NCBI GenBank assembly: GCA_051294905.1
Contig: CM119371.1
Coordinates: 24,802,001-24,866,000, forward strand
Direction: 5' to 3'
Length of the DNA stretch: 64,000 nucleotides
Source: Botryllus schlosseri
Taxonomy: Eukaryota
Position 1 is the stretch's first letter. Every line of letters starts with the position of its first letter. Positions 5,119 to 26,600 of this stretch are shown here, piece after piece. The position numbers and the translations under genes were made by a program. A model generated the notes under the pieces. The model did not search any database, was not told the origin of the DNA, and saw only the letters and a program-made list of their open reading frames with translations.

Positions 5119-5571
5119 GTAATATAAGCTGATAACCATGACATATTCATCGCTTGGTCGCGTCGAGAATCTGTAACAGCGAAGTATTTTATTTATCTGC
5201 ATAAAGCAGTATCAATATCATTATTTGTAGTAGTGAAGTATCATTAGCAAGCAACACTTTGTCTACATCGTCTTACTGAATCAAGGACTGCAATATTTAG
5301 TAAAAATAAAACAATATAATTGACTTATACAATATTCAATTAGAGCGCACGTCGATAACACATCGATAAATCTGTTGCAAGTGGAAAGATTCGATCAGAA
5401 AGCCATAGCACAGATTTCATTGTCTGGACGACAGTCAGCATTTCGCAATCTCAGCTAACATCTGTCCCCACACATATTTAACGGATATCAACACGACAGC
5501 TAACTATCTAAAAGTGTAGTTGCTGATTACCAAGCGAATATCACAATCAAAAAAGATATCAAACTGTTTCA

Positions 5572-5638
5572 ATGGCAGAAGGGGGTCACGATCCACGTGC
5601 TCAGGAAATCAGCTCATCATCGAAGCCTAGCATTGCAA
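5572..5638 (+). CDS. NLR exon 1 (MAEGGHDPRAQEISSSSKPSIA)
   Basis: ATG at 5572, open frame, donor AA|GTGAGC; phase 1 matches exon 2. Confidence 0.6.
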
Positions 5639-8600
5639 GTGAGCATTTATTTTTGATAATATGGTCGTAATAGGAAATATAAATTGATTGCGAATGCATA
5701 TAGCGGTCGTTCCTCCATTAATATCCTAAATGTCTTTAATACTCCACATTGTCCAAATGCTACTGTCTCGACAATACCAGCTATATTCGGGATCCTCTAT
5801 CGTTGATTTGGCCATCGGCAGGTAGTGACGACCTGCGAAATAGTTTGCCTTTATCTGCCTGTTTATCTACGCTTTCAGATGAGATGATCATTGATTGATG
5901 CCAGGTGTGCATCCATCATTCATAGCGCGAATTGTCGTGCGTTGCATTTCCTGTCATTATGATACTGGATTGATGCCTTCATAGAGAAATTACTGATTCT
6001 TTGGATTCCAATTAATTATGTTCAGAGAAATATTTGTTACTTACTGACACAACGATTTGTATCCTCTTAGGACATGCACTATTGGCTGAAGGTGATCAGG
6101 TCATTCAATACTTTGAAAATTGTACCGTGAACGTTGTTGCAGGAGACCAGTACACGACGGTCATTAACGGTAAGCAGATGTGATCGTTAACAAAGTACTC
6201 ATAGTTTTTGGGGTAACCGGATGTAACGCCCAGAGCCTGCCTGCCAAATTCCTGCCCGGACGCTTGAATTCATACGAAATGCCCCTGCAGCTATTCAGAT
6301 CAATATGCGGAATTCTTCCGGAATGAATTTACAGAATTATGGAATAATGTCACACCTAAAAAAACACCATTATTTTAAAGGCCGTTGTTTCAAAACACCG
6401 TTTGTTTCGAATGCAACCCTATACAATACATATTCGGTGATTCTCCCTTGATGGAATGCTGTTGCAATCGCCGAAGCTGTTTCAGTTAGTGAGAAATAGT
6501 GATGTTGCGCACATGAAATTAGCTTATTTCTGAAAAAATGAACAATACAAAGTAGAAACAATTTCAGCATTTTAAAATGCAATACTTTTTTGTAACAGAG
6601 ATACCTGTTGCACCAGGCAGTCCTGGAAACAAGTCGGAGCAACAACAGATAAGACTGGAAGCACGTAAGTTACTCTAAAACATTCCATTGGGTTTTATGG
6701 TGTTCAATGTGGATAGAATATATAATTCGTATCAAACGATATTGGTTATACGAAAAGCCGGGAATTGCGCGAGTTGCACCAAGTTCGCTTTAGAGTTCAG
6801 TGACTTCTCACCAATGGCATGGGAGCAAATACCTCATTGGAGATAAAGACTCCCATAAAATAAGACTAACAAATATATAAAGCCTAAAAATTCAGCTGGC
6901 TGATTCATCGGAGGCATCGTTACTTGTCGCGTTAGTACTGATAACTAGGGCCATTTAAAGTCATTAAAGTCATATTTTTTTCTATGCATCAGTAAGTCGT
7001 GAAATCAATTTTAACGCGAAAACCACGTCCCTATGGGGTATATTTAGAAAGTTATAAAGTCATATAAAGTCATATTTTCCTGGTTAGGTCATATTTGAGT
7101 TATAAAGTCATATTGTTGTATACTTTAAATAAAAAGTGCCAATTTAGGCGGTGAAGCAATTAAGCACTAAGAAAGTAGGGCCATTTCTGATTGAACGAAG
7201 TCAAGCTGTAAGGTTAGCCTACATCATATTACAGCCAGAGACCTATGAGGTGACACATTGCATTATGAGGTCGCACATTGCATTGTGATGCTACACAATC
7301 TGTTATACTTCTGTGCACGGAAGTAGGACGTCATTTGAAGTTCAGTCAGTGGGTAGGCAGGCTAGAAAGCTCTATCTTGGTCTAGTTATATACAAATATA
7401 TTTGGATTTGAATAAAATAGTATTAGCGATGGGCACCACGATAATAAATATTTGAAGAATAGGTCACCGAAATATGCCTCCACTACAACAATATTTCAAA
7501 CTTGATACAGAAAATGGAAAGTTGTACGTACACCATCAGAGAGGCTAATGCTGATCTAAATGCTCTTGATTTCAGAAAAGATCCGCTTGAGCTCAAAAAT
7601 TACATTAAGAAGCGAGTAGACAAAAACGATGTGAAACAAATTATGGAGCTACAAAGGCAAGATATTTCACCAGCGCTGTATGCAAAACTGCAAAAGTGTC
7701 AACCCACATTAGCGTCTGTGGAGCGCTCATTTTCCTTACTAAAGTCATTTTACGTCCAAATTGTCACTTTAAGGACTCCAACATTCCACACAACATGAAA
7801 CTGTACTACAACAGTGGTTTAAAATAAAAAATGGATACGTAATACTGCTATGTTGCGTATGTTTTACTCGTCAGTTCCATGAGTGACGTTGGTTACATGT
7901 AAAAATACACCATTTTCACATAAAGTCATATAAAGTCATATTTTCCATAAAATAAAGTCATATAATTGATTTTTTAAGGTCATATAAAAATGGCCCTACT
8001 GATAACGCATTCGTAAGAAGATACTATATTCAGTCTGCAGTGAAAGTGGGTATAGCATAGACATTGAAGCTACATAGCAGCTGTGAAATAGTTGTCGGAC
8101 TCCCTAACTTCACGATATATACCCACCGCCAGTTCACGAAGTCGTCAACACCTAGCAGATTATTTCACTGTGATGCACATAATATCGGATTTTAAAGTTT
8201 CAAATCAGTGCAACCGTGTCTGTCTTGAAATGTGTCATCACCTAGCACCTGTATATAAATAAATTTCGTTTGAACTCTTGAAGGGGTTTTGATGTTCCTA
8301 CCTTGTTGGTATATGGAATTTCGTCATTGATATGACGATGACATGGATTAATACCACGCAGTTAGGTCAGGGCGTCATATAGAATACTTATAAGCAACTT
8401 GTGATGAAAACACGTGATGCTTATGGCTGTCTGAATTATTTACCAGGTTTCCATGTTCTATAATAATAATAGAATAAAATCGGGGAATATAAAGAGTATG
8501 GATTCCGCAATTATACTATGACAACAGGAACAGGCCCGATTGCCCATGCGGTATAGCCTATGTTGTTGAATTGCGCCATCACATGCAAGGCTTGGCAAAT

Positions 8601-11600
8601 CTATGGCCTCTTTAGTATTGATGTTTAAAATAAGTCATCCATAAAATGCAAATAAGTCTTGCACATTCGAACAATCGTGGAATGTGCTCATTATTATTTT
8701 TTGCTTATCTAGAAACGATGGGGCAGTAGATACGTCACCTTGCTTGTCCCTGCGTCATTACTTACTAATTCTTTCAAGCCGCGGACTGATTGCTATTAGC
8801 TTCGTATGACATGTTACCCACGTTCTGGGCCGTTCAGAGTAGCCGTGATAATTAACATTTATCACCCTCAATGTACCCATCATATAAATTAGTAGACTAT
8901 TTTTCTTGACGAAAAAATTCAGAAGTGCAGTCGATGTGATGTTGACCCGCCCAATTTCCAACAGTCGTGATGGGATCAAATCAGTTAACAACTTCTCAAT
9001 GTAGGCTATCCTACTAACGACTTTGGAGTCCAATCTATTATGTCGACTATAGAATCTAGCGATGTCCATATACGATCGACCTAATGTCAGGCTATGTCAG
9101 GGAAAATACTGGACATGTTTTAAACATTAGAGCGATACCGAATTCATTTTGTTCAGTATCCCCCCCCCCCCCCCCAAAAAAAAAAAACTTTCATTCAGAT
9201 TTCACTGCCTATGTCATTAAAGTGCTAGGTCGGTTAAAACAACGATGCACGCCAAATTTGTCTCAATTTCCACCAGTAAAAGCGAGATTCTTGCAGTTGA
9301 AAGTTTTCAATTTATTATTAAAATATGAAAATAAACTTTCAAAATTTTTCTGTCAATTTCATAAAATTGTTAGTCTGTCAGTAGAAGTGATGTACAACAA
9401 ATTCTACTGGTTTGAATTGAACCAAACTTCGTGTGCATCATCTCTACTGAGAGCCTAACAATTTTATGTGGTCGGGAGAAAATTTGAATTTTTTTATATT
9501 TATTTTTGTTATGTTCTTGATCTTGTTTGAACAATAACTCAATGCGACGAGGTTGCAATACAGAATCAGTATATTACCAGCAGAATAACTTTAAGGCAGC
9601 GACACGATCCAGAGTGCAGTTAAATGAAAAGACCACGAGACAATAGAACACAGGATATAAATACAAGCACGACACACGAGGAAATAATGATTGGCGGTAA
9701 TTACTAATCCTATAGAAAGAAAGAGTTGCACGACACTAAAACGTAAATGCACGAACATAACAGTCCTCCCCTATAAGTTGAGAGGGTTGCCCACATTCAC
9801 GTAGGTATGTAGAAATCGGTTGGCTTTCTGTCCCTAAGAGGATAACGTCTACCCGACGTATGAGAAGGATTAGATGCAGGACCTTGTGCCCTGTTCCTAA
9901 CCAATGGTTGCTCAGCTTGCGACTGCGGAGGCTGAGCAACTTCCTGTGTAGCTGTATTATTATGGCCAGCTGAAATCAAGCGTGGTTGGAGTTGGTTTTT
10001 GTGCCTCCTCCAATACCCATGATCCGTTTTTATCATGTACACAACACGCCCCAGTATTTCCGTCACCACGCCAGCAACCCACTTTGGTCCTCTTCGGTAA
10101 CTGCGAGCGTAAACCGAGGAAGCAATCTCGAAATGAGTGACTGATTGTCTAGGCGTAACGGGTTTCGATTTATCGAAGGGCGAGCACAAACTTAACAAAT
10201 TGCGTGACTGCCGACCATGTAAAATCTCGGCAGGCGTTTTCCAGTCTATGCCCGGGTGCGGTGCACATTGGTACGTAGCGAGAAGCGTTTGGGTCGCGAA
10301 GTTGAGATCTTTTCCCCCGTCGCAATTTTTTATCAATCCAGCTTTCAAAGTCTGGACGAATCGCTCCGCTTCCCCGTTCGAGTCAGGGTGAAAAGACGGT
10401 GATACGATAAAGCTGATTGCCAAATTAGAACAAATGGTATCGAATTCATTCGATGTGAATTACGGCCCGCCATCCGTGACAATTGTTATGGGCAAGCCTT
10501 CGATAGAGAAGACTTCCCTCAAAGCGTTGACCACACACGAGGTTGTAGTAGAACCGACATTCATTACTTTAACGAAAGGATATTTCGAATGCGCATCGAC
10601 GATGACAAGAAACATTTTATAGTTTATTGGACCTGCGTAGTCCAAGTGAATCCGTTCAAAGCTTTCAGAAGTTTTTGGCCATTCGCGATACTGACGATCA
10701 GGCGCTTTCATTACCTTACGGCAAGCGTCGCAACTCTTAACGAGATTTTCAATGTCGCGATTAATGGAAGGCCATGCGATGTAACGTCGAACCATCTGCT
10801 TCATTTTCGCGATACCCCAATGTCCTTCGTGCAATAATGATAAGACTCGCGAGCGAAGTGACTGCGGAATTACTACGTGCTGAAAACCATAAATATTGAG
10901 CATGACTATGTCTTCGTGCAGAGAAAGCGAATGTTTGCGAGTAGAAAACCAAGAAAAATCATCAATATGCGTCTTTGGATTCCAATTACTATGAGTGACA
11001 GATAATTTTGCTAGTTTCATGGTTTTGTCCTTCAGCGTCGCGTCGCGAATTTCATTGCGAGTTAACGGTAAGCCATCGAATGCCATATTAATAGCGTGAA
11101 CGATCTCCGCGTTTTCACGAATTTCCAATTCGTCAAACTCAGGGTCTGGACCCTTTGGTAGGCGAGATAAACCGTCGGCGTTTCCGTCCTGATTAGTCGG
11201 TTTATAGCGAATGTCATATTGGTAAGCCATGAGCGTTAGTGCTCATCGCTGTAAGCGTTGCGCTGTAATCACGGGAATTTTCTTGTCCGGCGAGAAAATA
11301 GCTAAAAGCGGTTTGTGGTCCGTTACGAGCGTAAATTTTCGGCCATACAAGAATTGACGAAATTTAGTGACTCCGTAAATGATTGACAGAGCTTCCTTCT
11401 CTATTTGAGAGTAGGATTTTTGCGAATCGGAAAGTGTTTTCGATGCGTGCGCGATGGGTCTCTCTTCGCCATTGTGCTCGATTAAGAGGACAGCGCCGAT
11501 TCCGAATTGAGAAGCATCAGTTGACAAAATGAGCTGATTGTTTATATCATAATGAGCTAACTGCGTAGCGTCGATAACGTTTTTGAGAATGCGAAAAGCT

Positions 11601-14600
11601 GCGTCACAGTCCGTATTCCAAATGAATTTCGCGTCTTTTTGAAGAAGGCGATATAACGAAGCGGCTTTATTCGTAAAATTAGGAATAAACGCGCGATAAT
11701 AATTGACTTTGCCCAGGAATGCCTGTAGCTGGCGAACATCCTGAGGTTTAGGCAACTGTTTGATTGCTTCAACGGATTTGTGAGACGGGCGTTTGCCGTC
11801 CTTGTCGATTATGTGACCAAGATACTCGATACTACTTTTGAAAAATTCACATTTCGCGAAGTTGACGGTGAAACCATATTCGGTGAGGCGCTCAAAATGT
11901 AGCGATAATTTGCGAAAATGATCGCGTTCATCAATGCCAGTAACGATTATGTCATCGATAAAATTAGCAACACCAGGTAAGCCGGCGATCATGGCATCAA
12001 TACAGCGTTGAAAATTTGCGGGACTAGATGCGACTCCGAAACACATGCGGCGATAACGGAATAGACCGAATTGCGTGTTGATGACACACAAATTCGTCGC
12101 ATCATCATCTAATTCTAGCTGAAAATAAGCATCGGCAAGATCAATTTTCGTGAATATACAACCACCCTGTAACTTGTTAAGAATTTCACCCAAGGAGGGC
12201 AGGGGATGTTGATCTATCTGAATTTTTTGATTCAATGCTTTGAAGTCACCACAAATGCGTACTGATCCATTTGATTTAGTGACGGCAACAATTGGTGCTG
12301 CCCAATCACTGTAATTGATTGGTTCGAGGATACCTTGATTGACTAATCTATCCAATTCGGTTTGAACAGCGATTTGCCTTGCGAAAGGCAAAGGGCGCGG
12401 CTTGTTGAATACGGGCTTGGCATTAGGTTTCAAGTGAATTGTCACCTTTGTCTTGGTGCATCGTCCTAATACATTAGAGAAAACGGAGGGAAATTTGGAC
12501 TGAAAAGATACCAATTTGTCGTTCGAATCAGAAATGTCAATAGTATTACATGATTGCGATTTGACCATCTGCGAGGAAATTGCATCCAAAGCAGACGTTC
12601 CCTTAGCGGTCATGGAGAAAGCAAGCGGTCATGGAGAAAGCATCGCTCCAATCGAGACCAAAAATGTTTTTCCCACGGTGTTCGTCGAGAACTACCAATT
12701 TTAAGCCAACTCGAACTTCAGAACCCACCTGCACTGTTACAGTGCAAATACCTTTCACTTTCAGTGGCTTGTCGCCATACGCTACGAAAGAGAAATGGTA
12801 TGCTGAGAGTTTCGGAGAGCCCAATGTTTTGTACCCAGTCAATCCCACCATGGCGGAGGGTGCACCAGTGTCCCACTGTGTCGGCAACGGAATGCCGTTG
12901 ATGCTGGAGTTGATCCAGAGCTGGTTTCCTACGCGTCGATATAGTTCAGTGGTTCCCAACCTTTTTCATCTCGTGCCTCCCTTGGCCGAAATTTAAGCCA
13001 AAATTCCCCCCTTAGAATAAATCTGCCCGATGATTAAAAAAGATGATTTTACCGCGCAAACACCTGTTGATTGAGAGAATAAGACGGGCTGTACCTAGTG
13101 TTTGTTTCTAGCAGTGCTGTAATAACACTTTACAGACCTCCAACAACAATGGTCGTGGTCCCAATCAAACAAATTCTGGAGGCTTGACTCGACAGACCCC
13201 CACACTTCCATTTGTGTTTTCGGCTTACCATGTACCAATCGCTTGCGTATGCATTTGGCCAATAATATTGGTACTTTCACATATGGCAGAGTTGACCAGA
13301 CTCGAGTCTGACTCGAGTCACCATTTTCTGATGACTTGACTTGACTCGAGTCATTTTCTCAAAATACGGAAACGACTCGACTCGACCCGAGACAATCTGG
13401 GTATTGACTCGACTTGGACTCGAGTCATTGTGCATGACTCAAACCAAGCCATATGACTCGAGACTACAAGACGGCCAAGACCGACATTTCATTGTAATTT
13501 CGAAGAACAGTAAAGTGACAACCCAATCGGAATTTCGTCTAGTGATCTTGGTACTTGACAGTTGACACTGCGACAAGAAACTGCTCAAAGTGTGGAAAAT
13601 TAGTGTATCACAAATCCAAATCATTCAATATCACCAAACAGTGTTGACTTGAGTGTGACTTGGACTCGGACTTGAGTCATAATACCATGACTCGGACTCT
13701 ACCCCGTGCTCGGTGACTTGGACTCAGACTTGACTCAATGGTGAATTGAAAGTGATTCGAATTGACTCGAGTCAAAATTATGTAAGTGAGAATAATTTGT
13801 GACTCAGAGCCTCGGGACTTGGTTACAGCATTGATACTTAACGTACACGTGTTCAGATTCCCTGCTGGAACTCCTTGGAAATTAGGACATCCATTACGTT
13901 TCGGCATCATTGCACCGAGTTTAACATTTTTTTTTTCGATCAGGTTGCTGTTCACTAAAAATAAAGCAAGGCTAGCGATCTCTTTGACTTGAATCGATGA
14001 CGTTGAAATATTTTGTCACTGTCTGAAAATGTTGACTTGGAAATATAAAATATATATTTTCACCAGAGGCCTTGTTGTGATAGATTCGGCACGCCATTTG
14101 CTCGCTTAGGATACATTTGATTGAGAGGCCGTCGCTGGCCTACAAAATTGCAGAAAATCTGAACTAGTTTGAGAAAGGGGGGATTGGTATGTGAAAAAGA
14201 GATTTCAAATAGCATTTGAACATACTTTCAGCAAACAAAAAACAGGCATAAGGAGCATGCGTTCGAATATAACTGGTTGAATACATGACAGTTCGGACAT
14301 GAAAAATTCGGGAAATCCGTTACAATTCTAAAGTGGAATTCCTCCCTAAAAATTGCAAAATTCCCCCCAAGGGGGGAATTCCTCCCCCGTTGGGAACCAC
14401 TGATATAGTTGGTCGATGTCGAAGGAGAGGAGTGGCACTGAGCAGAAATTGACGGATGTGACCTGTTGCGTGATACTAGGTTTGGTAGACATGCACACAG
14501 GTTTGATATGACCTTTACGACCACATTTCTGACATACTGCATGTCGATATTGACAGTCTTTTCTCTGGTGATCGATGAAACAGCGGCTGCAGGATTTCGG

Positions 14601-17600
14601 TCTTTCTGGGAAGTTGCCTTGGTTGGATTTGGAAAGTTTTTTCCCCTTCTGATAGCTTCCAGTCATTTTGTCGACGATGGAAGTATCTTTACCGCTACTT
14701 TCGCCTCGGATAACCCTATCAGTTTCCAGCATTCTCACGAGTGTTGCGGCTACTTTGAGAACGTCGTCGAGGAATGGATTGGTTTGTGTTAGACAATGCC
14801 GTCTCACATCCGCGTGCGGCGTTTCTATAATGATGAGATCGCGCATTAGCTCATCAACGTAGCTCTGATCACAGCCTTCTCTTGAGCATGTGAAGTTGCA
14901 ATCCTTGGAGATTCCGCGTAGAGTAGCGATCCAGCAGGCGTACGATTGTCCCCGTTGCATTTTACAGTTGTAAAATTCGTACCTGGCTGCTTGCACATAA
15001 ATGGAGTCTTTGAAGTGCGTAGACAACTTCTCAGTCAACACGTCGAAGGATTGTGCACTCACATCAGCAGCACCAAACAAATTACGTAGGAGCGAGTACG
15101 TTTCAGGTCCGACCCATGAGAGTAGACACGCTCTTTTCCTCTCCATGTTGGAAATGCCGTAAATTGCAAGGTGGTGGTTGAATCGTTGCAGATATTGGTC
15201 CCATTTCTCCTTCGATTTTACAAACGAATCAAACTTGGGAGCGGTAGCTTCAGATGTTGACGCACCGGGACTCAACCTCTGCGTTAACTGTGCCATTTCT
15301 GTCATGACTTTTGCCATTGCTTCGTCATGCTTTGCTTGTTGTTGCACCATCATCTCTTGCTGCTTCGCTTGTTGTTGCGCCATAATCTCTTGCTGCTTCT
15401 CAAGAATTTTCAAAATACCCGATTCCATAATATATATTCGTCGCAGAAATAACTGTGAATCCGACTTCTGACACCAATTGTTATGTTCTTGATCTTGTTT
15501 GAACAATAACTCAATGCGACGAGGTTGCAATACAGAATCAGTATATTATCAGCATAATAACTTTAAGGCAGCGACACGATCCAGAGTGCAGTTAAATGAA
15601 AAGACAACGAGGCAACAGAACACAGGATATAAATACAAGCACGACACACGAGGAAATAATGATTGGCGGTAATTACTAATCCTATAGAAAGAAAGAGTTG
15701 CACGACACTAAAACGTAAATGCACGAACATAACAATTTTTTATATAATAAATTCAAAACTTTTTATAGCAAGAACCTCCTTTCTACCGGTTGGAATTGAG
15801 CCAAATTTGGTGTGCAGCCTTGATATAGCAAACATAATAATTTTATCCCGTATTTGAACATCATCCCTAATCTTCATGCATACGTTGGGTTGATGTGAGG
15901 ATGCTGTTCCTGGACTGATTAAAAACTTTTTGTTTCTTTTTCTTTTCATGCAATACCTATAGAAAACTCTACGACTGTGTTTATGTTTACATAGCATTAA
16001 CATAAAATATTTCGATTCGATGTGATCATGTAATTTCCGATTATGTTTTCAGAAATGGCATTTCTAGCAAAGACCAAGCAACATCTTCGTAACGAAGTTG
16101 GAGAAATCAAAATGCCCGCTCGTCCCACAACAATGGTGATCGATATGCAGACCGCCAACGACGCCAACTTCACAAATGCAACTCATGGTGCTAGCAAAAC
16201 TGTATTTGGTCGTGACGTTCAACCAATCTCTCATGACCAATTTCATGATCCCATGAAAGGTAAATCTCCCAGGCATGTTATGATACTCGGAGAAGCAGGG
16301 GCTGGAAAATCAACCATTTCGGGAATATATTGCTTGGCTGTAGCTGATGGAAATGTTGAGACGCTTCGTAGTGTACAACTTGTTCATTACATCCAGGCAG
16401 CCCAACTTCATAACCATAGTACCGCAAACGTCTTTGATCTCCTATTTACCGAACAAATCGCTTATGATCCTATGACTGAATTGACTGTAAACGAGAGACG
16501 TGCTGGAGCAAACTGGTTAAATGAGAATTCAGACAAAGTATTATTGACAATTGACGGCCTTGATCAATGCTTAGATAACATTGTTGTGAATACTTCCCAA
16601 AGTACCTGCGAACTAACTAATTCAAGAGTCACTAAAATCATCGCTAGAATCATGGGCGGAAACATATGGAGAGGCGCACGCATATTGACCACGTCGCGGT
16701 GGAATATTTACTGGAACTTGACTGCCGAACAGAAACCAAACAAAGTAGTCGGCATGAGAGGATTTGACGACGAAAATCTCAAGTTGGCAGCACAAGCGCA
16801 CTCTGTTGATGGCGGTATGATGATAGATCAACTCCTGAATACTTCCCTGAAATTATTAAATTTATGTAGAAATCCTATGTTTCTAAAGTATACCATGAAA
16901 ATATTCAAAACAAATTCTGAAAACTTGCCAGATAGTATTTCCGGCCTCATGTCAGCATTTTTACGAAATTTCTTCCGCCTGTCCTCTGAGAAGTATGACG
17001 ACGTTACGAGACTCGCCTACCATGCAACATTGGACAATATATTTGTGTTTTCGCGCCGGTACTTAGAAAACCTGGTAATCAACCCAAAAGATCTCACTGA
17101 CTTCTTGTCTGCTGGAGCAAATCCGGAAAAAGATCAGGATGTCGCCAACTCGTTTGACGATGTATTTTCCTTCTCCCATCAAACAATGCAGGTTAGCGAA
17201 GTTGATGTATTTTGTTGCAATAAATCCAATTATTTATTATTGATTAGGCCACCGTATCTCAAACTTTTTTAGACACGCCCCTCGTTTTAAAAGTGAAAAA
17301 ATGCGCGCGAATCGTCATGTTACCAATCCGATCTAAATGCTGGCACTCTAAACTGATATTAAGATGGTCTAGATCAGTGGTTCTCAACCTTTTGTGACTC
17401 GCGCCCCCCTTGGAGATGGCCAAAAAATCGCGCCCCCCTGACCCCCCTTGCATTTATCGTCATGTCAAAAAGAGCACATCATCTAATACAAAGGTGGGCA
17501 ACGTTTTTGATAATCATGGCCGCATTTCGAATGCCTATGTAGCGTGAGGCCGCATTCCAGGGCATAGCAGCAATGAACGATCTGGACGCAATATCCATTC

Positions 17601-20600
17601 CCGGTGAACTCCGGACTATTCTACTTTTCACAATGGCCTATTGTACGCACCGAAATCGGGAGTGGCAATGTTATGAATAGTTGCCGGGCGGTGCATATTG
17701 TCCCGCGGAGCGCGAAAATTTTTCAGGGCCGCGAACGAATTGTTATTTCTTGCCAATTCCCATTCCGGCTCAGATTAAGAAGGGCGCTACTGTATTAAAA
17801 TCGAAAAATGAAGTCTTGTTGAATTGCGCGGAGGGCGAAGAAAATTTCAAGATTAATTAAAATCTCTCGAAAATGCGAGAGATGAATTAGGCGTCGACGG
17901 CCGCTCAAATTCCCTTGTACGGCCGCAGGCTGCCCACCCCTGATCTAATAGCATACATAAGGTATATCTTACGCCAATTTTGAATCTGCATTCCAGTTGT
18001 TGAGTCTTTTACATTGCTGACAAATTTCTCCAAAATTGTGAACAAAAAAAACATTGAACAATACATCTATTAATTAATTTCAAGGTAGGTCACCCTGAGA
18101 CTAATCCTGATGCTGGTAGTGAGTACAGAGAGCAAGGCGTCGGTCTGTCCTGTCATGCTAAATTTGATCAGTTTTGGAAATGAATTAAATTGTGTTGATT
18201 TATAGCCTAATTAAGGGCGAAACCAGGCAACCTATGTTGCATCTAAGTCTTTTTTAGGCAGTGCAGTTCGTAAGCTACGAACAAGAGCTGCCCAGCGCGA
18301 CAAGCTTTAGGCTAGTGTCAAAGCTATGAAGCAATGAATGAATTACACGTGGGAATTGCTCTTTATATTTCCAAAGAATTTCAAAAATTTGCTCAAATGA
18401 GCAAATTGAGCGCGATTGCGCGAGTTTGTATTTTGCAAGCTTTCTTGAATATGGAATAAATTTTATCTTCATTAATCGTCTTCTCACAATGGATGTGAAA
18501 CACATGTTCAGACACGTACAATTTATACTGACTTTGTCAATTTCTCGCCCCCCCCCTATACTGACTCCGTCAATTTCTCGTGCCCCCCGTGAGAGCCTCC
18601 CGCGCCCCCCAGGTTGAGAACCCCTGGTCTAGGTGGCATGGGTGGCTATGACTGTTGATGAGTGATTTCTCAAATATGAAATTTGGACCTATACACTACG
18701 ACATAACTAGGAACTAGAGGTGCGATTTTTTTTCATTTGACCGCAGCTTCGCACCCACTTCAACTGCTTTCACGCCCCCGAGGGGGCGCGCCCCCAGTTT
18801 GAGAACCACTGGAGGCGAGAGGTAATATCGGAACAAATATATACTCTCGAAATTCGAAAATAAAGCTTTACCAACTTGCATCCGATCAACAATAAATTGA
18901 TCATAGAGGTATATGCAGAGGTGGTCAAAGTAGTCAAGAAAGCTACTCAAGTAGAAATAGAAGTAGCGACAAAAAAATCTACTCAAGTACGAGTAGAAGT
19001 ACTTCTTCAACAAGCCACCTAAAACTACTTGAAGTAGAAGTAGAATTGACGGACCTTAAATCTACTCAAGTAAGTAAGTAGTTTTAAAACAGTCTTAATT
19101 CGTTCGCATGGACTGTCAAAAGCTGCGAATTGATCTATGCGGAAGGTGCAGAGAGCTTGAATCGTATTGATGCATCCCAGGAGGTAAAAATTTTCGTCAG
19201 AATAAGCATTCTTTCGCATCATGGGTGCAAATTATAGTATTGATATGAAAATGCGATACTAACCCTTTGTTTACCAGAAGACCCCGTTTTAGAGAATATC
19301 ATGGCATGGCGCCCTACCCCATATTATAAGGCCCCAAGTTTAGGCGAAGAGCAATACGTTGAAATTTTATCGGATACGGTTTCATGACTTTGCGCGATTA
19401 GTATAAGTTAATAACAAATATTGTGGATCGTAAAAGTTATATCTAGTGTAGGTTTATTTTCGAAAAATAGAGGCATTACTACACTTGATTTTATGCTTCA
19501 ACATGTATGTTCTGCAGACAAAAGAACTGAAAGTATAATCAGAACTCAAAGTATGATACTCGCAATTGAAAGTGAAATACAAATACCACTTCTAAGAAGC
19601 GGAAAATATATTTCATGTCTTTTGTCCGTAAAGCTTCGAAGGTGATCTGCTAAAACAGGTGTAACGTTAAAAAAGGCTGGATTTTCCAGATTAGCAAGAT
19701 ACGTAATGGGCTGCTAGACTACGATATGATAGGTAATTGCTAGATCGCAAATTCAAACGTTATGGTGGGCCATATTTACTGTGATGAAATATTTGATATG
19801 GGCGACAATGCGGTGTGAGCGGAACCAAGCAATCCGGTACCTAAATTAAATTCAATGATACTTTCGTGAAAACATATTTGTCACTTCATAACTACTGTGC
19901 GCGAAGCGCAACAAAATTTATGAGCTTTACTTGACTTTTATGAATATTAATGTTGGTACTCCGTGAAAACAGCCCCGAAATTCCTCAGGCTATCTTTCGT
20001 ATTGGGGGAATAGGGGGAATACACTACTTCTACTTGACAAACTAAAAATAGCGTAAAGTAAGTAAGTAGATCACAAAATATTACGAAGTAGAAGTAGAAG
20101 TAGAGAAAATCAGATCTACTTGAGCAAGTACTAGAAGTAGAGGAAAACTACTTGAGTACTTCCAAAAAGTAGAAGTACTTCGTTATTGACCACCTCTGGG
20201 TATATGTACACTTGTACAGTATTCGCCATGAGTATTTTGTGGAAGTTTGTTCAGGAATTTTGCTGCGCGCTACATGTCCCAAATCTTGATCGGAAGGATA
20301 TGAAAGGATTCATTTCGAATCATTTGAACGAGAGTGGAATGGAGTTTACCAGGCAACTTTTGTACGGATTGATTCTCAATGAGAAAGTCACGGAGTCAAT
20401 GAGGAAATACCTGACGGGTGAGTTGACATAGTTGACATAGTTTGCCGTGCTTTTGTCGCGATAGCACAGGGGTGGGCAATTATTTTCCTCCACGGGCCAA
20501 ATGAGGACCAGAAATTACGTTGGCGGACCGAGTGAAAAATTTAGGCTATATTCTCCAGCGTATTTTAATTTTATTTCTAAATATCATTGTTAATAAATGC

Positions 20601-23600
20601 TGCTCAGTGAATGTGTTGATTTTAGTTAATGAGAAAGTGGAGGTTAATTAAAAAAATATCTATTTGCCGTCATGATTTGAAACAATGTTAAACATGATAT
20701 ATTTTCAACTTTCTTTAGACCCCTATCCACGTTCTTCCATTAAAACACTAAAACAGTGGTTCTCAAACTTTTGTTTAGGCACGACTCCTTTATGATAGTG
20801 AACAATTTCGCGCCTGACCCCCCTATCATGATATCACAACATATTAAAAAGAGCAGCCTAAGTGCTAGCAATCGCAACGGGCGGTTTGATGGCATGGGAG
20901 GTTATTGCTGCTGATGTGGCAATTCTGTAGTATCAAAGTCGGACAATACTCGAGCAATAAGTATATTATGGGTTCGGGGTGAATCACACCGAGCGCGGGA
21001 AAAATCTTTATTCAACTTCGACTTCGCGCTTCCTCTCAGATGCTTTCACGCCCCCTAGTTAGAGAACCACTGCACTGAAATGTATATTTAATATTACCAA
21101 GCTTGTCTTGGTCGCTGAATTCCGAGCAGTGTGCATCTCAAATAGCCTTGCTGTTGAGCGAAGTTTGCAGTATTTTGAAATTTGCCCTCCCTTGCCCAAG
21201 TGTTTCGTGTTTTTTTTACAAATTAAAATCCTTAATCTCGGCGCCATGTTCCACAAAAACTACAAGGACGGGTTTACCCCTAACTTCAGTATACAAATAT
21301 TTAGTGCTCTAAACCTTCTTTGAATTTCAGCTTCCGGCTTTCTCTTTTGGACATGCCCGTTCATCCTTCATGGGTGATATATATGATGAGTCATATAGTA
21401 ATCGCGAGCACTGATTGATTTGTTTTACGAATTATTAGGGATTTGGAAACGCCTCACGTAGCAATTTGAAACATAATATAATGCCTAATGTGACAATGGC
21501 AAGAAGGTTGACCTAAACTATATGAAAAAAGTGATTTCTTGTGAACAAAATTGTTACTGATACTTTGCCACATTGCTTTTATTTTGAATCTGGATTACGC
21601 ATGCGAGGTACGTTGGCAGCGTAATCGTGACATAGTAATGAACAGGCTTCAAAGTAGACGAAGTTTCTGTTTAGTTGATACAGCCTATGTGGTTTTTGTC
21701 CACGCAACAATATTCAAAAATCAGTTTTAATGTCATGAATTCTAAGCAACCTTTCGCAGGCTGCACATAATGGCTTTGCGGACCGCATTTGCCCCGCGGC
21801 CCGCCTTTTGCCCAGGTCTGCGATAGCAGTTACGGTAGAATGCAACACACATAGCTCATATTTCTTATGATACGCATTAGTGGATCGGTAGGATCCAGGG
21901 TTGTAACCAAGTGACAAGTCAATTTCACTTTTATTGTTTTGACTCGAGTCAAGTCGAGTCATTTTCAATTGACCACCGAGTCAAGTCCGAGAACAAGTCA
22001 TCGAGCAGAGGGTCAAGTCCGAGTCATGGTATCATGACTAGAGTCCGAGTTCAAGTCATTATATGTTGACTGCTCGGTTTCTAGTTAAAGTCTTGTTAAA
22101 CTCACTCTACATAGCTATGTTTGGTGATATCGAATTTTCGCATTTATAGTATACTAATTTTCCTCACTTTAAGCAGTTTCTGGTCGCACTTTCATGTACC
22201 AGCACCAATCAGACGAAATCCCAGTAGGGTGGTTACTTGACAATTCCTCGAAATCACAATGAAATGTCGGTCTTGGCCGTCTGAGTCTCGAGTCAATGAC
22301 TTGATCCGAGTAATGCGCAATGATTCGAGTCCAAGTCGAGTCAATACACAGATTGACTCGAGTCGAGTCGAATCATTTCCGTATTTTGAAAAAATGACTC
22401 GAGTCAAGTCGAGTCATAAAAAAATCGTGATTTGAGTCGGACTCAAGTCGCGTCATTACAAAACTGGTAGGATCCAATGAGGTTAGTGCGATTCTGATCG
22501 AAAATTTCTCTGGTCCGACTTCTGTTATTCAATACTGGTGTGCGGCTGCGATCCGGCACCGGCCGTATCAGAAAAAAGTGCCCATCCGGGTCCGATCCAG
22601 CTCCGGCCAAAAGTGAAGAAAAATAAATCCGGCTGGATATCCAATCAGCCATACAGGGTACGGTGGTTCCGTGAATTTATGAATAGGGCTCATTTATTTT
22701 CGTACTTGCTTGGCGGTTACTTGGGCGTGGTTGGTGGGATGGTATCGTTATTTAGTTAGTTACAAAAGTCATGCCTATCAATAAAGATTCTATCTGTATC
22801 AAAAGAGTACTGATCCGGCTCCGATCCGGCTCCAGACAAAATTCAAAAAATCCGATCGGATATCGAATCCGGCTCCGGTCCATGCTCCCCACTAGTTTCT
22901 GTACGATGACAAGACTCAGAATAGTAATGAGATCGACATTTTGTATTCTTAAAATTCGAGTTACCAATAACATTTCGATTCCATGCAAGAATTATACAAA
23001 TGGTATTACCATCAATATTTATTACTCCAGATAGGATTTTTGCATCGAAGTCGAGTATTTTCTTGAGTATGATTGTATAATATGTCTATCGTTAACACGT
23101 CACCTTTAAACGGCGTCAGCAACCTATCATTGAGACGAATTAGGAAAACTACGTTTTCGTGTTAACTTCAATAAATGTTTTCCCTTCATTAATAAATTGT
23201 TATTAGTTTCCTCACGCTGCATGGCTCGCAGGTCGCAAAACCTCAATCGAGGAATGTCGTGAGATGATGTTCGAACAATTTATTGACCTCGTGAAGGATG
23301 GCGCTATACTCGACATTACGACTGTTCGTCTCCTGAGCGAGTGCGGAGACAGCACCATTCAGAACATGAAAGAACACGTTCAACGAATTAGAATCAATAC
23401 CGAAGACCTGTTGCACAGTGATCAACTCTTACTGACAATATTGATAAAACGGCTGTCACCCCTTGAAACAACGTTCGTTCGGCAAATCACTCTGGATCCG
23501 TCGATGACAACGTGTGTGAAAGATTGTCTCGATTCTGTTGAAGTATTCGAGGTAACTCCACTTACTTGATGCTGGCATATTCACTCAATTTACTCAATGT

Positions 23601-26600
23601 CTTCTGTTGCAAGGCTGGCTATGAGATCATGGAATCCGTTGAAGAAATTCATTTAGATGATGTAATGACAATCCTTAATCGGTCGAAATTATTCTACGTC
23701 CGTCTTCGGTGTAATGATGGTGTGAAACTATTATTTCTCTTTGATTGGATAAAGAGATCTGAGGTATCACATCTACAGTTTTCGAAGTCAGGTAGCCAAG
23801 GGATCTTTGCCATAATTCTGTACTAAATTTGTTCACATGATTTACTAAACGTTAAGAATGTCAGCTGGTAATTGAATATCGCCGTGTCTGCAAAATTCCT
23901 CAGAAAAGCGACTATACAAACACAACACTGAACAATGAACATCATGAAATTTATTGTGATGAAAATAAATACAGCTAAATATAAATGTTGAAATGAAGAT
24001 GGAATCTGTGTAGAATATAGAGCAATATTAATTCTTCATTCAGGTTCACATGGGCGGCCTTGGCTTATTAAGGATAACTCGAGTTGATACTTTGAGAAAT
24101 TTGTTCAGATTTCTGTCGATACACTCAATAGAAAATCTGCGTTTGAACATTAATCCCGGCATAATCGGACTCCAATTTACAGAGATTGTCACGTCTCGTG
24201 GACCGACAACACGCAAGGTGAGAAATGTTATTATTCAATGTTACTGCAAAATTGATCCCCGTTGACTGCTATACTAAATAGTGTAAAAGTAATTTGGTGC
24301 AGCGTTTGGCAACATCGGATGCTGCATATAGCCCATGTCCATGGCGCAGCAATAGCTATAGTGGTTAATGTAAATCTAATGAGCATGCCTATCGCCCGTA
24401 AAACCGTAGAATCTCGTCTCTATTCGCTACTGGAATTTACATAACAATAACTACTTAATCGAATGAGCGTAGAATAATAGTATTGTATGTCCACACGAAC
24501 AAAGAACCCTCACTTGAGAGGTTGAAACCCTATTTTACGTGCACGAGCATGCGGATGAATCTTTAATTTTGTAACCTAATTTCCGCCAGTCCAAGTGTAT
24601 TCGCATCATTCCACTAGCTTCTATATCCGATCAATGTGAAATATTCATCTCCCTGCATGACCCGTATGGTGCATGGAGAATTACACAACAATTATTTGGA
24701 GTTTTTATGAGCGTCTGCGCAGGTGGTTCTCAAATTGGGGTCAGGGCTTCTTTTGGAGTCCGCAAGATAATTTTTTTAAAACCGTGAAGCACGTTAGGAA
24801 ATTTTTTGATGTAACAATCCAACCTTTTTTTAAAACAAACTGAATGGTGGCCCGACGTTATAACGTTATTCGATATAACATATAATATTTTGGTCGCACT
24901 TCGCGCGTTTTAGTGTCACTATGCAGTTCCTGATTAGATTTCGCCTATACCAACTCCTGAACAAATTACGAGTAATTTTGAAGAAATGAGTCTTCCTGTA
25001 TTCTTAATTATGAGAGCATCACTTCAGACCGTTAACACTACATAGTTTAGGGGTGAGCAACCTTCAGGTGCATCATCGTCGTTTCGGTGCTGTCCACAAC
25101 ACACCAAGGTTACACGAACACGCGATTGTACGGGAAGTGCGCTGCCAAAAAGATTACCAGCGACAAAGCCGTTGCCCGAAATAATCACCGTAAGCTGGAA
25201 CCTTGGAATCTTGCATCTTCAGTTGTTCACTCACCGAAAAAATGCGACCCGCGGAGAAGCACAATGCTCCCGGTTCCAAATGCTAAATACAAAGGAATTT
25301 TGCCTTTAGTTTAGTCTGGTACGTGTGAGCGATTCCAATATCTTTCGAGTAGCGACAATAAATAATCGAGTTCACGAAATACCAATATGCTTTTATCCTT
25401 ACTGCACACTAATTTTAATAACACTAGGCTATGGGTCACCAACACGCGGCTCGCGAGGTCATGTTATGCGGATGGCGACTTAATTTGAGGTTTCGGAAGA
25501 AAGCGAAGAAAACCATTTTGAAAGACTGAAATTGAACACAGTTTTAACAAATTGTTGTGGTTATTGTTGTTTCGAAATAGCTATTTTCCTGTGCCAAACA
25601 TCATTCCACCGAGGGAGAATAATCAGCAGATATGAATGGGTTGGGCATGTTGCCTTGACGTGCAATGTCTCAAACACTGCCGAGACCGAGATGTTTAAAA
25701 ACTGCATAGGGCGGTGGTACCAAAACTGGGGGGGTGCACCCCTGTAGTGGGGACGTGAAAGTATCTGAAGGGGCCACGAAGCTGCGGTCAACTGAAAATG
25801 TTTTTGCGCTACGCACCATTTACGTCACATTCATATTTTGTTTGCTATTGTGGTATGCATGGTGTTTTTCGACTACTATAGTCATTTACACCAGGCCAAC
25901 ATTTCTCATTATTTTTCGTAACTGCCGATTATAGCACGGCCCACCTGTAGGCTTTTTGTGAGACACCGCTTACGTGGATGAGGTGGCGAGGATGAGCCAT
26001 AGGTAAACCATAAACACTTAGGTAATGGAATTCTGAAGTCGACCTCGGTCGGACTCGAGCCCGCACCCATTGGTGTTGCAGCCGCAGATTACACCGGAAA
26101 TCATATTATAGAATTCTCTCATCAACAGTCATAACCTGCCATGCCATCAAACCATCCTTTGGAATTGCTAGCATCCTGGTTGTAATTCGGGATATGATGA
26201 TAAGTGGGGAGCGAAATATTTCAGTATCACAAAGGGGGGCGTGTCTAAAAAAGTTTGAGAACCACTTGCTAAGGGCAGTCCCACTATATCAAGCTTTACG
26301 TGGAGATGGTCTTTCAGCTAGTAACGTATCTCGCTACTCCAAATTAGCCTAAATCAAGTGCAAAATCAAATTCAACAAATTTCGTTTCGTAATTTAATAT
26401 AAAAGTGGCTATCCTTTGCATTGTTGTGTAATTTCGAACACTGCGTCCACTCTCATGGGATAACTGCTGCAATCTTCTAAAATAATTTTTCAGGTCTCCA
26501 TCATGACGATTGAAGATAAATCCATGACGTATAAAATATTTGAGGCTTATTTGGATATTTTCCGGCACTGCAAATTCAGGGGTCTATCTCTAGCTAAGTG

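What the first reader, a model, noticed from the sequence alone, without database searches (positions are those of the whole stretch)
6071..6169. NLR with no death-fold domain but a RHIM-like amyloid motif in its own symmetric N-terminal exon
Seen: only ~77 aa (exons 1-3) precede the NACHT exon, too short for a CARD, PYD, DEATH or DED domain. Exon 2 encodes VIQYFENCTVNVVAGDQYTTVIN, a beta-prone, N/Q/G/V-rich stretch flanked by disordered S/P/Q-rich exons. Known: the RIPK3 RHIM reads VNIYNCSGVQVGDNNYLTM, sharing the NC...VxxGD layout; insect cryptic RHIMs (PGRP-LC/LE, Imd) lack the core Q; fungal and bacterial NLRs signal through N-terminal amyloid motifs. Inference: this may be an animal NLR that signals by amyloid templating to a separate effector carrying the same motif. 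The core here (VVAG) is non-canonical, so the resemblance could be coincidental.
Basis: partly seen in the sequence, partly recalled or inferred. Interest (0 to 1): 0.8.

Follow-up and report, generated by a model that had tools for sequence, protein, structure and literature searches.

The report
Short motif shared by NLRs and kinases
A 33-codon exon at the start of this immune-receptor gene encodes a short conserved motif that recurs in front of about ninety related receptor genes and a few kinase genes in the same animal genome, so it looks like a new docking module that could link sensors to effectors.

Summary
Window 6071-6169 is a 99-nt, phase 1-1 exon with AG/GT borders. It encodes HALLAEGDQVIQYFENCTVNVVAGDQYTTVIN and sits in an open six-exon reading frame that leads into a NACHT exon. 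No death-fold domain was found.

The motif is not a chance resemblance. Two searches of the genome gave 136 places. Of these, 88 have a same-strand NACHT exon within 25 kb downstream, against 0 on the opposite strand.

The motif is better conserved than the NACHT domain: 48-64% against 21-26% identity in distant paralogs.

It is not a RHIM by any test run here. The Pfam RHIM model hits 0 of 29 copies. The (V/I)-Q-(V/I/L/C)-G tetrad is present in 0 of 29. A profile search of solved structures found no RHIM or HET-s chain.

The functional idea gained support. The same exon lies 1.1-4.6 kb upstream of five IRE1/RNase-L-type kinase exons. One pair joins in frame, and ribonuclease (KEN) exons follow it.

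Best reading: a new, exon-shuffled homotypic signalling motif that couples NLRs to kinase/RNase effectors. An amyloid-like mechanism is possible but unproven.

No RNA reads covered this gene, so its splicing rests on comparison with paralogs.

The parts
5572..5638 (+). Exon 1 coding part (ATG, 22 codons + 1 nt; MAEGGHDPRAQEISSSSKPSIA); donor GT at 5639
   Evidence: Read. First in-frame ATG after a TGA at 5524-5526. The ATG, the donor and a 6-nt indel are conserved in 3 paralog loci.
6071..6169 (+). Exon 2, the finding: a 99-nt phase 1-1 exon encoding the conserved motif (family consensus xAxLAEGDxVxQxFENxTVNVVAGDQxxxxIN)
6599..6664 (+). Exon 3, 66 nt, phase 1-1; a P/S/Q-rich linker (IPVAPGSPGNKSEQQQIRLEA)
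   Evidence: Acceptor ACAG|AG and the donor are conserved, with a 6-nt indel, in paralogs.
9506..15734 (-). LTR retrotransposon inside intron 3 (257-nt LTRs, 98% identical; gag, RT and integrase reading frames on the minus strand)
   Evidence: RNA reads lie only on this repeat.
16053..17191 (+). Exon 4: pre-NACHT linker plus NACHT domain (Walker A GEAGAGKST)
   Evidence: Pfam NACHT 2.8e-12. Best solved relatives are 5irl/5irm, E 7e-6. Acceptor in phase 1, donor in phase 0.
20255..20417 (+). Exon 5 (EFCCALHV...); continues the reading frame after the NACHT exon
23232..23551 (+). Exon 6, phase 1 in and phase 0 out
26464..38013 (+). Region with repeated reading frames of about 57-60 aa (26464-26691, 29310-29516, 32935-33123, 37783-38013). 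They look like NLR-type leucine-rich-repeat exons by eye only. The bounds given are reading-frame bounds, not exon bounds.
   Evidence: No Pfam hit at E<=0.01. No solved-structure hit for the one frame tried, 32935-33123.

Best explanation
Exon 2 encodes a lineage-specific N-terminal signalling module of about 30 residues: LAEG[DE]-x-V-x-Q-x-F-x-N-x-[TS]-V-N-V-V-[AG]-G-[DN]-Q. It sits in a symmetric (phase 1-1) exon that has been shuffled onto two kinds of genes. The first kind is about half of the NACHT/NLR-like receptor genes listed in this genome. The second is a small set of IRE1/RNase-L-type kinase genes, at least one of which has KEN ribonuclease exons downstream.

Proposed mechanism (inferred, not shown): ligand-driven oligomerisation of the NACHT module brings several copies of the motif together. 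The clustered motifs form a beta-sheet assembly, either amyloid-like stacking or beta-augmentation. This assembly recruits proteins carrying the same motif. The recruited kinase-RNase is then switched on by induced proximity, which is how IRE1 and RNase L are activated (established knowledge). On this reading the motif does the job that CARD, PYD or Death domains do in vertebrate NLRs, and that RHIM or fungal and bacterial amyloid motifs do elsewhere, without being a sequence member of any of them.
For: SHOWN, gene structure:
- The exon and its reading frame are intact.
- 28 of 30 copies keep the acceptor in the same phase.
- Exons 1 and 3 keep their ATG and splice sites, with 6-nt indels, in paralogs.

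SHOWN, link to NACHT genes:
- Of 136 motif places, 88 have a same-strand NACHT exon within 25 kb downstream, median distance 7.1 kb.
- Controls: 0 on the opposite strand and 2 on the upstream side. My arithmetic expects about 0.6 by chance.
- 82 of 168 listed NACHT places have a motif upstream.

SHOWN, conservation and composition:
- The motif outlasts the NACHT domain. Examples: C9 copy 63% against 21% identity; C16 56% against 24%; C12 60% against 23%; C2 62% against 22%.
- Composition is V 13%, N 13%, A 12%, T 9%, Q 7%, G 6%, K+R 2.5%, P 0.2%.

SHOWN, non-NLR carriers:
- In L054 the motif exon (cag|GA ... G|gtgagc) lies 1.1 kb upstream of a single-exon Pkinase reading frame (2.3e-43).
- That frame's acceptor, tttcag|GT, is in phase 1, so the two exons join in frame.
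- VAIK, HRDLKPSN, DFG and APE are all present.
- The best solved relatives are IRE1 kinases, E 1.6e-29.
- KEN exons lie 8-9 kb further down the same strand.
- Four more motif places lie 1.2-4.6 kb upstream of paralogous kinase exons. Controls gave 0 and 0; about 0.1 is expected by chance.

SHOWN, no death-fold module:
- 0 of 136 motif places have a listed Death or caspase exon within 25 kb on the same strand, upstream or downstream.
- Only 5 CARD places exist in the genome, none within 50 kb of a motif or NACHT place.
Against: - No transcript evidence. Depth was 0 on exons 1-4 in four sampled RNA runs. Intron 3 carries a young LTR element. The closest paralog, L049, has an in-frame TAA in its exon 3 and no motif exon in the 4.6 kb upstream that was fetched.
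- No physical evidence of self-association or fibrils.
- AlphaFold2 on the 29-sequence alignment gave pLDDT 73.8 with no assigned secondary structure.
- Four of the five kinase pairs rest on weak motif hits (E 0.04-1.1), and I hold no sequence for them.
- The five pairs may go back to a single shuffling event followed by duplication.
- The kinase carries the motif at its N-terminus. The kinase genes are not next to NLR genes. Both points differ from fungal and bacterial amyloid pairs.
- 43 of 136 motif places are unassigned.
- 0 of 84 named kinase relatives from other species carry the motif.
- All feature lists are lower bounds.
Confidence: 0.5

Rival explanations
1. The motif is a docking or regulatory handle for a separate folded partner, such as an E3 ligase, a chaperone or an inhibitor. 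Each carrier is controlled individually, and there is no motif-to-motif contact.
For: - The sequence is short, extended and strongly conserved, as expected for a linear binding motif.
- It occurs on unrelated catalytic modules.
- One orphan copy lies 5.5 kb upstream of a RING finger (1.6e-10) inside a kinase+RING gene cluster.
- AlphaFold2 gives no beta structure for the monomer.
Against: - About 25 constrained positions is long for a linear docking motif.
- The N/Q/G/V/T-rich, K/R/P-poor composition and the three beta-prone segments seen in the longer subfamily exons fit self-stacking better.
- No candidate partner domain was identified.
Confidence: 0.2
2. It is a true but very divergent RHIM (or cryptic RHIM) homologue that forms RIPK-type hetero-amyloids.
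For: - It sits at an NLR N-terminus and in front of a kinase, which recalls the RHIM-NACHT proteins reported in Branchiostoma (PMC4262963; passages, section 4 and supplement read).
- V-x-x-G, given as the cryptic-RHIM core in PMC13506858 (passage), is present in 22 of 29 copies.
- By eye against the RIP3 row of that supplement, anchored on N-C, 5 of 21 positions are identical.
Against: - The Pfam RHIM model hits 0 of 29 members at E<=10.
- In the whole genome the same model gives 3 matches, none over its cut-off, and all look like chance.
- The tetrad (V/I)-Q-(V/I/L/C)-G (PMC9444067, passage) is present in 0 of 29.
- A profile search of solved structures finds no RHIM or HET-s chain.
- The matching C and Y are variable in the family, and the family's conserved V-N-V-V-[AG]-G does not line up with G-[IV]-Q-[IV]-G without gaps.
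- V-x-x-G carries almost no information.
Confidence: 0.08
3. The exon is one part of a small folded N-terminal domain that also includes exon 3 and the first ~70 residues of the NACHT exon. It acts in cis, for example in autoinhibition, and is not a free signalling motif.
For: 156 residues precede the P-loop, which is room for a small domain. AlphaFold2 confidence of 70-90 for 24 of 32 residues hints at some preferred conformation.
Against: - Exons 1 and 3 are low-complexity and poorly conserved compared with exon 2.
- The motif exon joins directly to a kinase exon in another gene, and to quite different pre-NACHT regions in other subfamilies, so it does not need its present neighbours.
- Pfam finds no domain there.
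Confidence: 0.1
4. This particular copy is a silent or decaying gene. The family motif is real, but the window's gene no longer makes protein.
For: - Zero RNA depth on exons 1-4 in 4 runs.
- A 6.2-kb LTR element with 98%-identical LTRs lies in intron 3.
- A neighbouring paralog shows decay: a TAA in its exon 3.
Against: All six exons examined are open with intact AG/GT sites. Only 6-13% of each run was read, and NLR genes are often weakly or conditionally expressed, so zero depth is weak evidence.
Confidence: 0.12

Closest known systems
RHIM (RIP homotypic interaction motif) and insect cryptic RHIM
   Same: A short, non-globular, beta-prone motif flanked by linkers. It occurs on sensors and on a kinase. 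It sits where death-fold domains usually sit. Animal RHIM-NACHT architectures were reported for Branchiostoma (PMC4262963).
   Different: No match to the RHIM profile and no I/V-Q-I/V-G tetrad. The motif lies N-terminal to the kinase, whereas the RHIM of RIPK1/3 lies C-terminal to it. The kinase here is of IRE1/RNase-L type, not a RIP kinase.
NLR-associated amyloid signalling motifs of fungi (HET-s/HRAM, sigma, PP) and bacteria (BASS)
   Same: A motif of about 20-40 residues at the N-terminus of a NACHT receptor, with the same motif on a separate effector protein. Composition is rich in N/Q/G and V/I.
   Different: No Pfam match to those families. The effector copy is N-terminal, not C-terminal. 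Receptor and effector genes are not adjacent. The effector is a kinase/RNase rather than a pore-forming domain. Amyloid formation has not been tested.
Death-fold modules (CARD/PYD/DD) that link vertebrate NLRs to kinases, for example NOD1/2-RIPK2
   Same: The same logic: one homotypic module shared by many NLRs and by a downstream kinase. The NACHT exon's best solved relatives are chains 5irl/5irm, which I recall as NOD2.
   Different: About 30 residues in one exon instead of a six-helix bundle of about 90 residues. The genome has only 5 CARD places, none near a NACHT exon.
IRE1 / RNase L kinase-KEN effectors
   Same: The motif-bearing kinase is closest to IRE1 kinases (1.6e-29) and has KEN exons downstream. 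Named relatives in octocorals, a tunicate and a springtail carry Pkinase plus Ribonuc_2-5A.
   Different: A short shared motif takes the place of the lumenal sensor domain (IRE1) or the ankyrin/2-5A sensor (RNase L). 0 of 84 named relatives show the motif.

Membership tests
RHIM (Pfam PF12721) | Match to the RHIM profile HMM | tested here: not met
   Window peptide: 0 families at E<=10. 0 of 29 family members match. Genome-wide, 3 matches at E 2.6-9.4, none over the cut-off, in chance-like reading frames.
RHIM (Pfam PF12721) | Core tetrad (V/I)-Q-(V/I/L/C)-G (PMC9444067, passage read) | tested here: not met
   Regular expression found it in 0 of 29 copies. The family has V-N-V-V-[AG]-G instead.
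RHIM (Pfam PF12721) | Sequence relationship to solved RHIM or HET-s fibril chains | tested here: not met
   A family profile against 177,635 distinct PDB sequences gave one chance hit at E 3.1 (histidine utilization repressor) and no RHIM or HET-s chain. A profile-profile test could not be run.
RHIM (Pfam PF12721) | Forms homo- and hetero-amyloid fibrils | not testable with these tools
   Needs ThT, EM and fibre diffraction.
Cryptic RHIM (insect IMD pathway) | V-x-x-G core (PMC13506858, passage read) | tested here: inconclusive
   Present in 22 of 29 copies, but a four-residue pattern with two free positions says almost nothing.
NLR-associated amyloid signalling motifs (fungal and bacterial) | Short motif at the N-terminus of a NACHT/NB-ARC receptor | tested here: met
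   The motif occupies residues 24-55 of the predicted protein. 88 of 136 places lie upstream of NACHT exons.
NLR-associated amyloid signalling motifs (fungal and bacterial) | Same motif on a separate effector protein | tested here: met
   In-frame motif exon plus IRE1-type kinase exon in L054, and four further positional pairs. The motif is N-terminal rather than C-terminal, and a single transcript has not been shown.
NLR-associated amyloid signalling motifs (fungal and bacterial) | Receptor and effector genes adjacent in the genome | tested here: not met
   For the 5 motif places paired with a kinase exon, the nearest same-strand downstream feature is the kinase, not a listed NACHT exon. Distances between these kinase genes and NACHT exons were not measured directly.
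NLR-associated amyloid signalling motifs (fungal and bacterial) | Match to a described motif family held in Pfam (I recall HET-s_218-289, NACHT_sigma and Ses_B/PP as those held) | tested here: not met
   No Pfam family at E<=10 for 28 of 29 members; one spurious potato_inhibit hit at 0.049. BASS families are not in the libraries on hand.
NLR (NACHT-LRR receptor) | NACHT NTPase domain with Walker A | tested here: met
   PF05729 E 2.8e-12, 47.2 bits against a cut-off of 26.7; GEAGAGKST present.
NLR (NACHT-LRR receptor) | C-terminal leucine-rich repeats | tested here: inconclusive
   Repeated reading frames of about 57-60 aa downstream look LRR-like by eye. No Pfam hit at E<=0.01, and no PDB hit for the one frame tried.
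NLR (NACHT-LRR receptor) | Death-fold N-terminal effector domain (CARD/PYD/DD/DED), typical but not obligatory | tested here: not met
   None in the 156 residues before the P-loop. 0 of 136 motif places have a listed Death exon within 25 kb on the same strand, upstream or downstream. The 5 CARD places are all more than 50 kb from any motif or NACHT place. DED and PYD were not searched genome-wide.
IRE1/RNase L kinase-KEN family (the putative partner, L054) | Protein kinase domain closest to IRE1, followed by a KEN (Ribonuc_2-5A) domain | tested here: met
   Pkinase 2.3e-43. IRE1 chains are the best solved relatives. KEN halves at C3:47598-47822 and C3:46480-46644, on the same strand and in the right order. 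KEN sequence was not inspected, and a single transcript has not been shown.

The most novel reading that the evidence does not exclude
An animal lineage has evolved its own prion-like signalling motif, unrelated in sequence to RHIM. It replaces death-fold domains on roughly half of a large NLR repertoire. By templated beta-sheet polymerisation it couples those sensors to IRE1/RNase-L-type kinase-ribonuclease executioners. This would be a metazoan counterpart of the fungal NWD2/HET-S and bacterial BASS systems, with RNA cleavage rather than membrane attack as the output.
Probability: 0.25. Interest if true: 0.9.

Novelty: new variant of a known kind. Interest (0 to 1): 0.7.

Why it matters
Most invertebrate NLR repertoires have N-termini with no recognisable domain, and how they signal is an open question. 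Here a single ~30-residue exon is the best-conserved part of about ninety NLR-like genes. It reappears, in frame, on a kinase of the IRE1/RNase L kind.

That gives a concrete, testable wiring diagram: sensor, then shared motif, then kinase/RNase. It offers a new family in which to ask whether amyloid-like templating, known from fungi, bacteria and the RIPK necrosome, is used more widely by animal NLRs. It is also a clean example of a phase 1-1 exon being shuffled between immune gene families.

Tried and rejected
- RNA holders: the look-up of sequencing runs listed no RNA holder of the NACHT exon. The listed raw-read runs of the same species label were then laid.
- Complex prediction with four copies of the motif returned "no answer" (score 0.02). 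It counts neither for nor against binding.
- AlphaFold2 of the motif alignment gave pLDDT 73.8 with no secondary structure assigned. This is uninformative.
- The search for homologous proteins found nothing with the motif frame or with the NACHT exon.
- The 1.84-billion-protein library gave 17 hits at E<=0.001. Twelve are short reading-frame fragments (40-160 aa) with intron-like flanks. Five are long repetitive false positives. None shows a full-length architecture.
- The search of earlier findings returned nothing in three look-ups.
- The own genome cannot be searched with an alignment.
- Orphan motif places L053, L055 and L057: no domain within about 4 kb. L055 is interrupted by a retroelement.
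- L056: SH2 exons (1.5e-10 and 7.7e-11) lie 2.3-3.6 kb downstream of a motif exon, but a direct splice is out of phase and no linking exon was found. This is left open.
- Motif place #13 has a RING finger 5.5 kb downstream with no kinase exon in between. This too is left open.
- The taxon was not determined. An early guess of amphioxus was dropped: neither the NACHT exon nor the kinase found close named relatives, and no canonical RHIM was detected.
- Literature: five searches found no paper describing this motif. The four peptide strings searched occur in 0 papers. Alignments printed only as figures cannot be searched.
Full report
**1. The observation**

The window is animal DNA, about 40% G+C. 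At 6071-6169 there is a 99-nt exon with AG at 6069-6070 and GT at 6170-6171. Its inner 32 codons read HALLAEGDQVIQYFENCTVNVVAGDQYTTVIN.

A first coding exon (5572-5638) starts at the first in-frame ATG after a TGA at 5524-5526. A third exon (6599-6664) follows. Both flanking exons are low-complexity. All three end in phase 1.

The next exon (16053-17191) is the NACHT exon. Pfam gives PF05729 at E 2.8e-12, and the Walker A reads GEAGAGKST. Joined by coordinates, six exons up to 23551 read open for 618 codons with AG/GT at every border. 156 residues precede the P-loop.

Pfam finds no death-fold family in the exon-2 peptide or in the NACHT exon, the two parts that were scanned. The best solved relatives of the NACHT exon are chains 5irl/5irm at E 7e-6; I recall these as NOD2.

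Intron 3 is long because it holds an LTR retrotransposon on the minus strand (9506-15734), with 257-nt LTRs that are 98% identical.

**2. Transcript evidence is missing**

No RNA holder was listed for the NACHT exon. Raw reads of four RNA runs of the same species label, sampled at 6-13% each, gave depth 0 over 5221-6380 and 16241-16820. Reads lay only on repeats.

Support for the exon structure is therefore comparative. In paralogs, exon 1 keeps its ATG and its GCAA|GTGAG donor and differs by a 6-nt indel. Exon 3 keeps ACAG|AG and its donor, again with a 6-nt indel.

The closest paralog by NACHT (89% identical, L049) has an in-frame TAA in exon 3 and no motif exon in the 4.6 kb upstream that was fetched. 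Some copies are therefore decaying.

**3. The motif is a family feature**

Searching the window's own 495.5-Mb assembly with the 32-residue peptide gave 85 places. Of 30 fetched copies, 28 have an AG acceptor in exactly the same phase, and most have a phase-1 GT donor after 29-35 codons.

Twenty-nine distinct copies align to the consensus xAxLAEGDxVxQxFENxTVNVVAGDQxxxxIN. L4 is invariant. A2, A5, Q12, F14, N16, N20, A23 and G24 are at 90% or more.

A second search, with the copy from a kinase gene, gave 123 places. The union of the two searches is 136.

NACHT exons were listed by three searches: 108, 94 and 85 matches from 195-224 candidates. These merge to 168 places. All are lower bounds.

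- 88 of 136 motif places have a same-strand NACHT exon within 25 kb downstream; the median is 7.1 kb and the range 0.5-23 kb.
- Controls give 0 on the opposite strand and 2 on the upstream side.
- Conversely, 82 of 168 NACHT places have a motif upstream, and 6 have two. In L048 two motif exons stand in tandem.

The motif is more conserved than the ATPase it precedes. In the distant subfamily the NACHT exon is 21-26% identical to the window's, while the motif is 48-64% identical. That subfamily matches NACHT plus NOD2_WH.

Composition is V and N 13% each, A 12%, T 9%, Q 7%, G 6%, K+R 2.5% and P 0.2%.

**4. It is not a RHIM by any test available**

- The Pfam RHIM model matches neither the window peptide nor any of the 29 members at E<=10.
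- Over the whole genome the model gives three sub-threshold matches in chance-like reading frames.
- The tetrad (V/I)-Q-(V/I/L/C)-G, which defines RHIM (PMC9444067, passages read), is present in 0 of 29 copies.
- A family profile against all solved chains finds no RHIM or HET-s chain.

The supplement of Kajava et al. 2014 (PMC4262963, read) prints the RIP1, RIP3 and HET-s rows. By eye, anchored on the shared N-C, the window peptide and human RIP3 agree at 5 of 21 ungapped positions. The agreeing C and Y vary within the family. The family's conserved V-N-V-V-[AG]-G does not fall on G-[IV]-Q-[IV]-G.

The cryptic-RHIM core V-x-x-G (PMC13506858, passage) is present in 22 of 29 copies but carries almost no information.

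**5. The same exon stands in front of non-NLR genes**

Among the places without a listed NACHT, one (C3:57824-57925, minus strand, locus L054) reads cag|GA...LSTLAEGEQITHRFTNSTVNVVGGDQFIIYDTFG...G|gtgagc.

- 1.1 kb downstream lies a 284-codon reading frame that is a protein kinase (Pkinase 2.3e-43), with VAIK, HRDLKPSN, DFG and APE.
- Its acceptor, tttcag|GT, is in phase 1, so the two exons join in frame.
- Its best solved relatives are IRE1 kinases (1.6e-29).
- The two halves of a KEN/Ribonuc_2-5A domain lie 8-9 kb further down the same strand, in the right order.
- Named relatives, the best being an octocoral protein at 34% identity, carry Pkinase plus Ribonuc_2-5A. None of the 84 shows the motif.

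This kinase has many single-exon paralogs: 84 matches at E<=1e-15 from 272 candidates. Four further motif places lie 1.2-4.6 kb upstream of such exons on the same strand. Both controls give 0, and about 0.1 is expected by my arithmetic. Those four motif hits are individually weak (E 0.04-1.1), and I could not fetch their sequence.

Two looser cases remain.
- SH2 exons lie downstream of a motif exon in L056, but a direct splice is out of phase.
- A RING finger lies 5.5 kb downstream of another motif copy, inside a large kinase+RING tandem cluster.

No listed caspase or Death exon lies within 25 kb of any of the 136 places on the same strand, upstream or downstream. The genome has only 5 CARD places, none within 50 kb of a NACHT or motif place.

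**6. Interpretation**

The following is shown:
- a symmetric exon encoding about 30 strongly constrained residues;
- its place as the N-terminal module of about half of the listed NLR-like genes;
- its presence, in frame, on at least one IRE1/RNase-L-type kinase gene.

That pattern is the signature of a modular interaction element shared by sensors and effectors, as CARD is between NOD1/2 and RIPK2, or RHIM between ZBP1/TRIF and RIPK1/3.

The rest is inferred. About 30 residues is too short for a globular domain. The composition is rich in N, Q, G, V and T and poor in K, R and P. The longer subfamily exons show three beta-prone segments. Together these point to a beta-sheet assembly, possibly amyloid-like, nucleated by the oligomerised NLR. 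IRE1 and RNase L are activated by dimerisation or oligomerisation (established knowledge), so recruitment into such an assembly would be enough to switch the effector on.

None of this is demonstrated. The complex prediction gave no answer, and the monomer model is uninformative.

**7. Comparison with what is known, and novelty**

Kajava et al. 2014 already reported RHIM motifs at positions usually held by death-fold domains in Branchiostoma proteins, including a NACHT protein. Fungal and bacterial NLRs use N-terminal amyloid motifs (abstracts and passages read). The principle is therefore not new.

The sequence family is new as far as I can tell:
- no Pfam family matches it;
- no described amyloid motif family matches it;
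- no hit in any long protein appears among 1.84 billion representatives;
- no paper holds the motif strings;
- no paper turned up in four other searches.

The pairing with IRE1/RNase-L-type kinases is also unreported in what I could search. I file it as a new variant of a known kind. Figures, and papers that are not open access, could not be searched.

**8. Verdict**

| Claim | Confidence |
|---|---|
| The exon is a genuine, conserved family module | about 0.85 |
| It works as a homotypic coupling motif | about 0.5 |
| It is amyloid-forming | about 0.25-0.3 |

Interest: 0.7.

Noticed in passing
window 9506-15734 (minus strand): An LTR retrotransposon fills most of intron 3. It has 257-nt LTRs that are 98% identical, with gag, RT and integrase reading frames. 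RNA reads from all four runs map to it, with many variants, so related copies are expressed.
   Followed up: partly
L049 (G000:C1:24383000-24392999), 3262-3385: The closest paralog (NACHT exon 89% identical) has an in-frame TAA in its exon-3 homologue, a GTCAGT donor, and no motif exon in the 4.6 kb upstream that was fetched. Its N-terminal part is probably decaying.
   Followed up: partly
L048 3477-3551 and 3956-4039; also 6 of 168 NACHT places: Two motif exons stand in tandem about 0.5 kb apart, upstream of one NACHT exon (variants ...NATINVIGGNQ... and ...NANINVIGGNQ...). Some receptors may carry two copies, as HET-s and ZBP1 carry repeated motifs.
   Followed up: no
G000:C3:16.1-17.6 Mb, minus strand: A large tandem array in which an IRE1-like single-exon kinase is followed 0.5-3 kb downstream by a zf-C3HC4_3 RING exon, at a dozen or more pairs. 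One motif copy (C3:16440081) lies in this array next to a RING with no kinase exon.
   Followed up: partly
many contigs, e.g. G000:C11:4507177/4522833, C3:8197890/8213540, C16:14429888/14446023: Near-identical-scoring copies of a ~100-aa Death-domain reading frame and a 257-aa caspase-like reading frame recur about 16 kb apart on the same strand. Many Death copies occur as inverted pairs about 10 kb apart. This looks like a multi-copy, possibly mobile, unit carrying death-fold and caspase-like genes.
   Followed up: no
whole genome: There are at least 168 distinct NACHT exon places (up to 224 candidates) but only 5 CARD places, none within 50 kb of a NACHT exon. This repertoire largely does without CARD.
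   Followed up: partly
G000:C3:13.05-13.79 Mb and other sites: 31 KEN (Ribonuc_2-5A) places, several inside single reading frames of 590-650 aa. This points to an expanded set of kinase-RNase genes in this genome.
   Followed up: no
P0016 and P0019 (library fragments): In two short library fragments the motif begins at the initiator Met (MAEGE...). This recalls the window's exon 1 start, MAEGG, and the motif's LAEG. Exon 1 may be a remnant or duplicate of the start of the motif.
   Followed up: no
window 54563-55525 (+): Two adjacent reading frames (209 and 110 aa). The second is rich in CX2C...H...C zinc-knuckle-like spacing. It is probably a retroelement gag. Pfam gave no hit at E<=0.01.
   Followed up: partly
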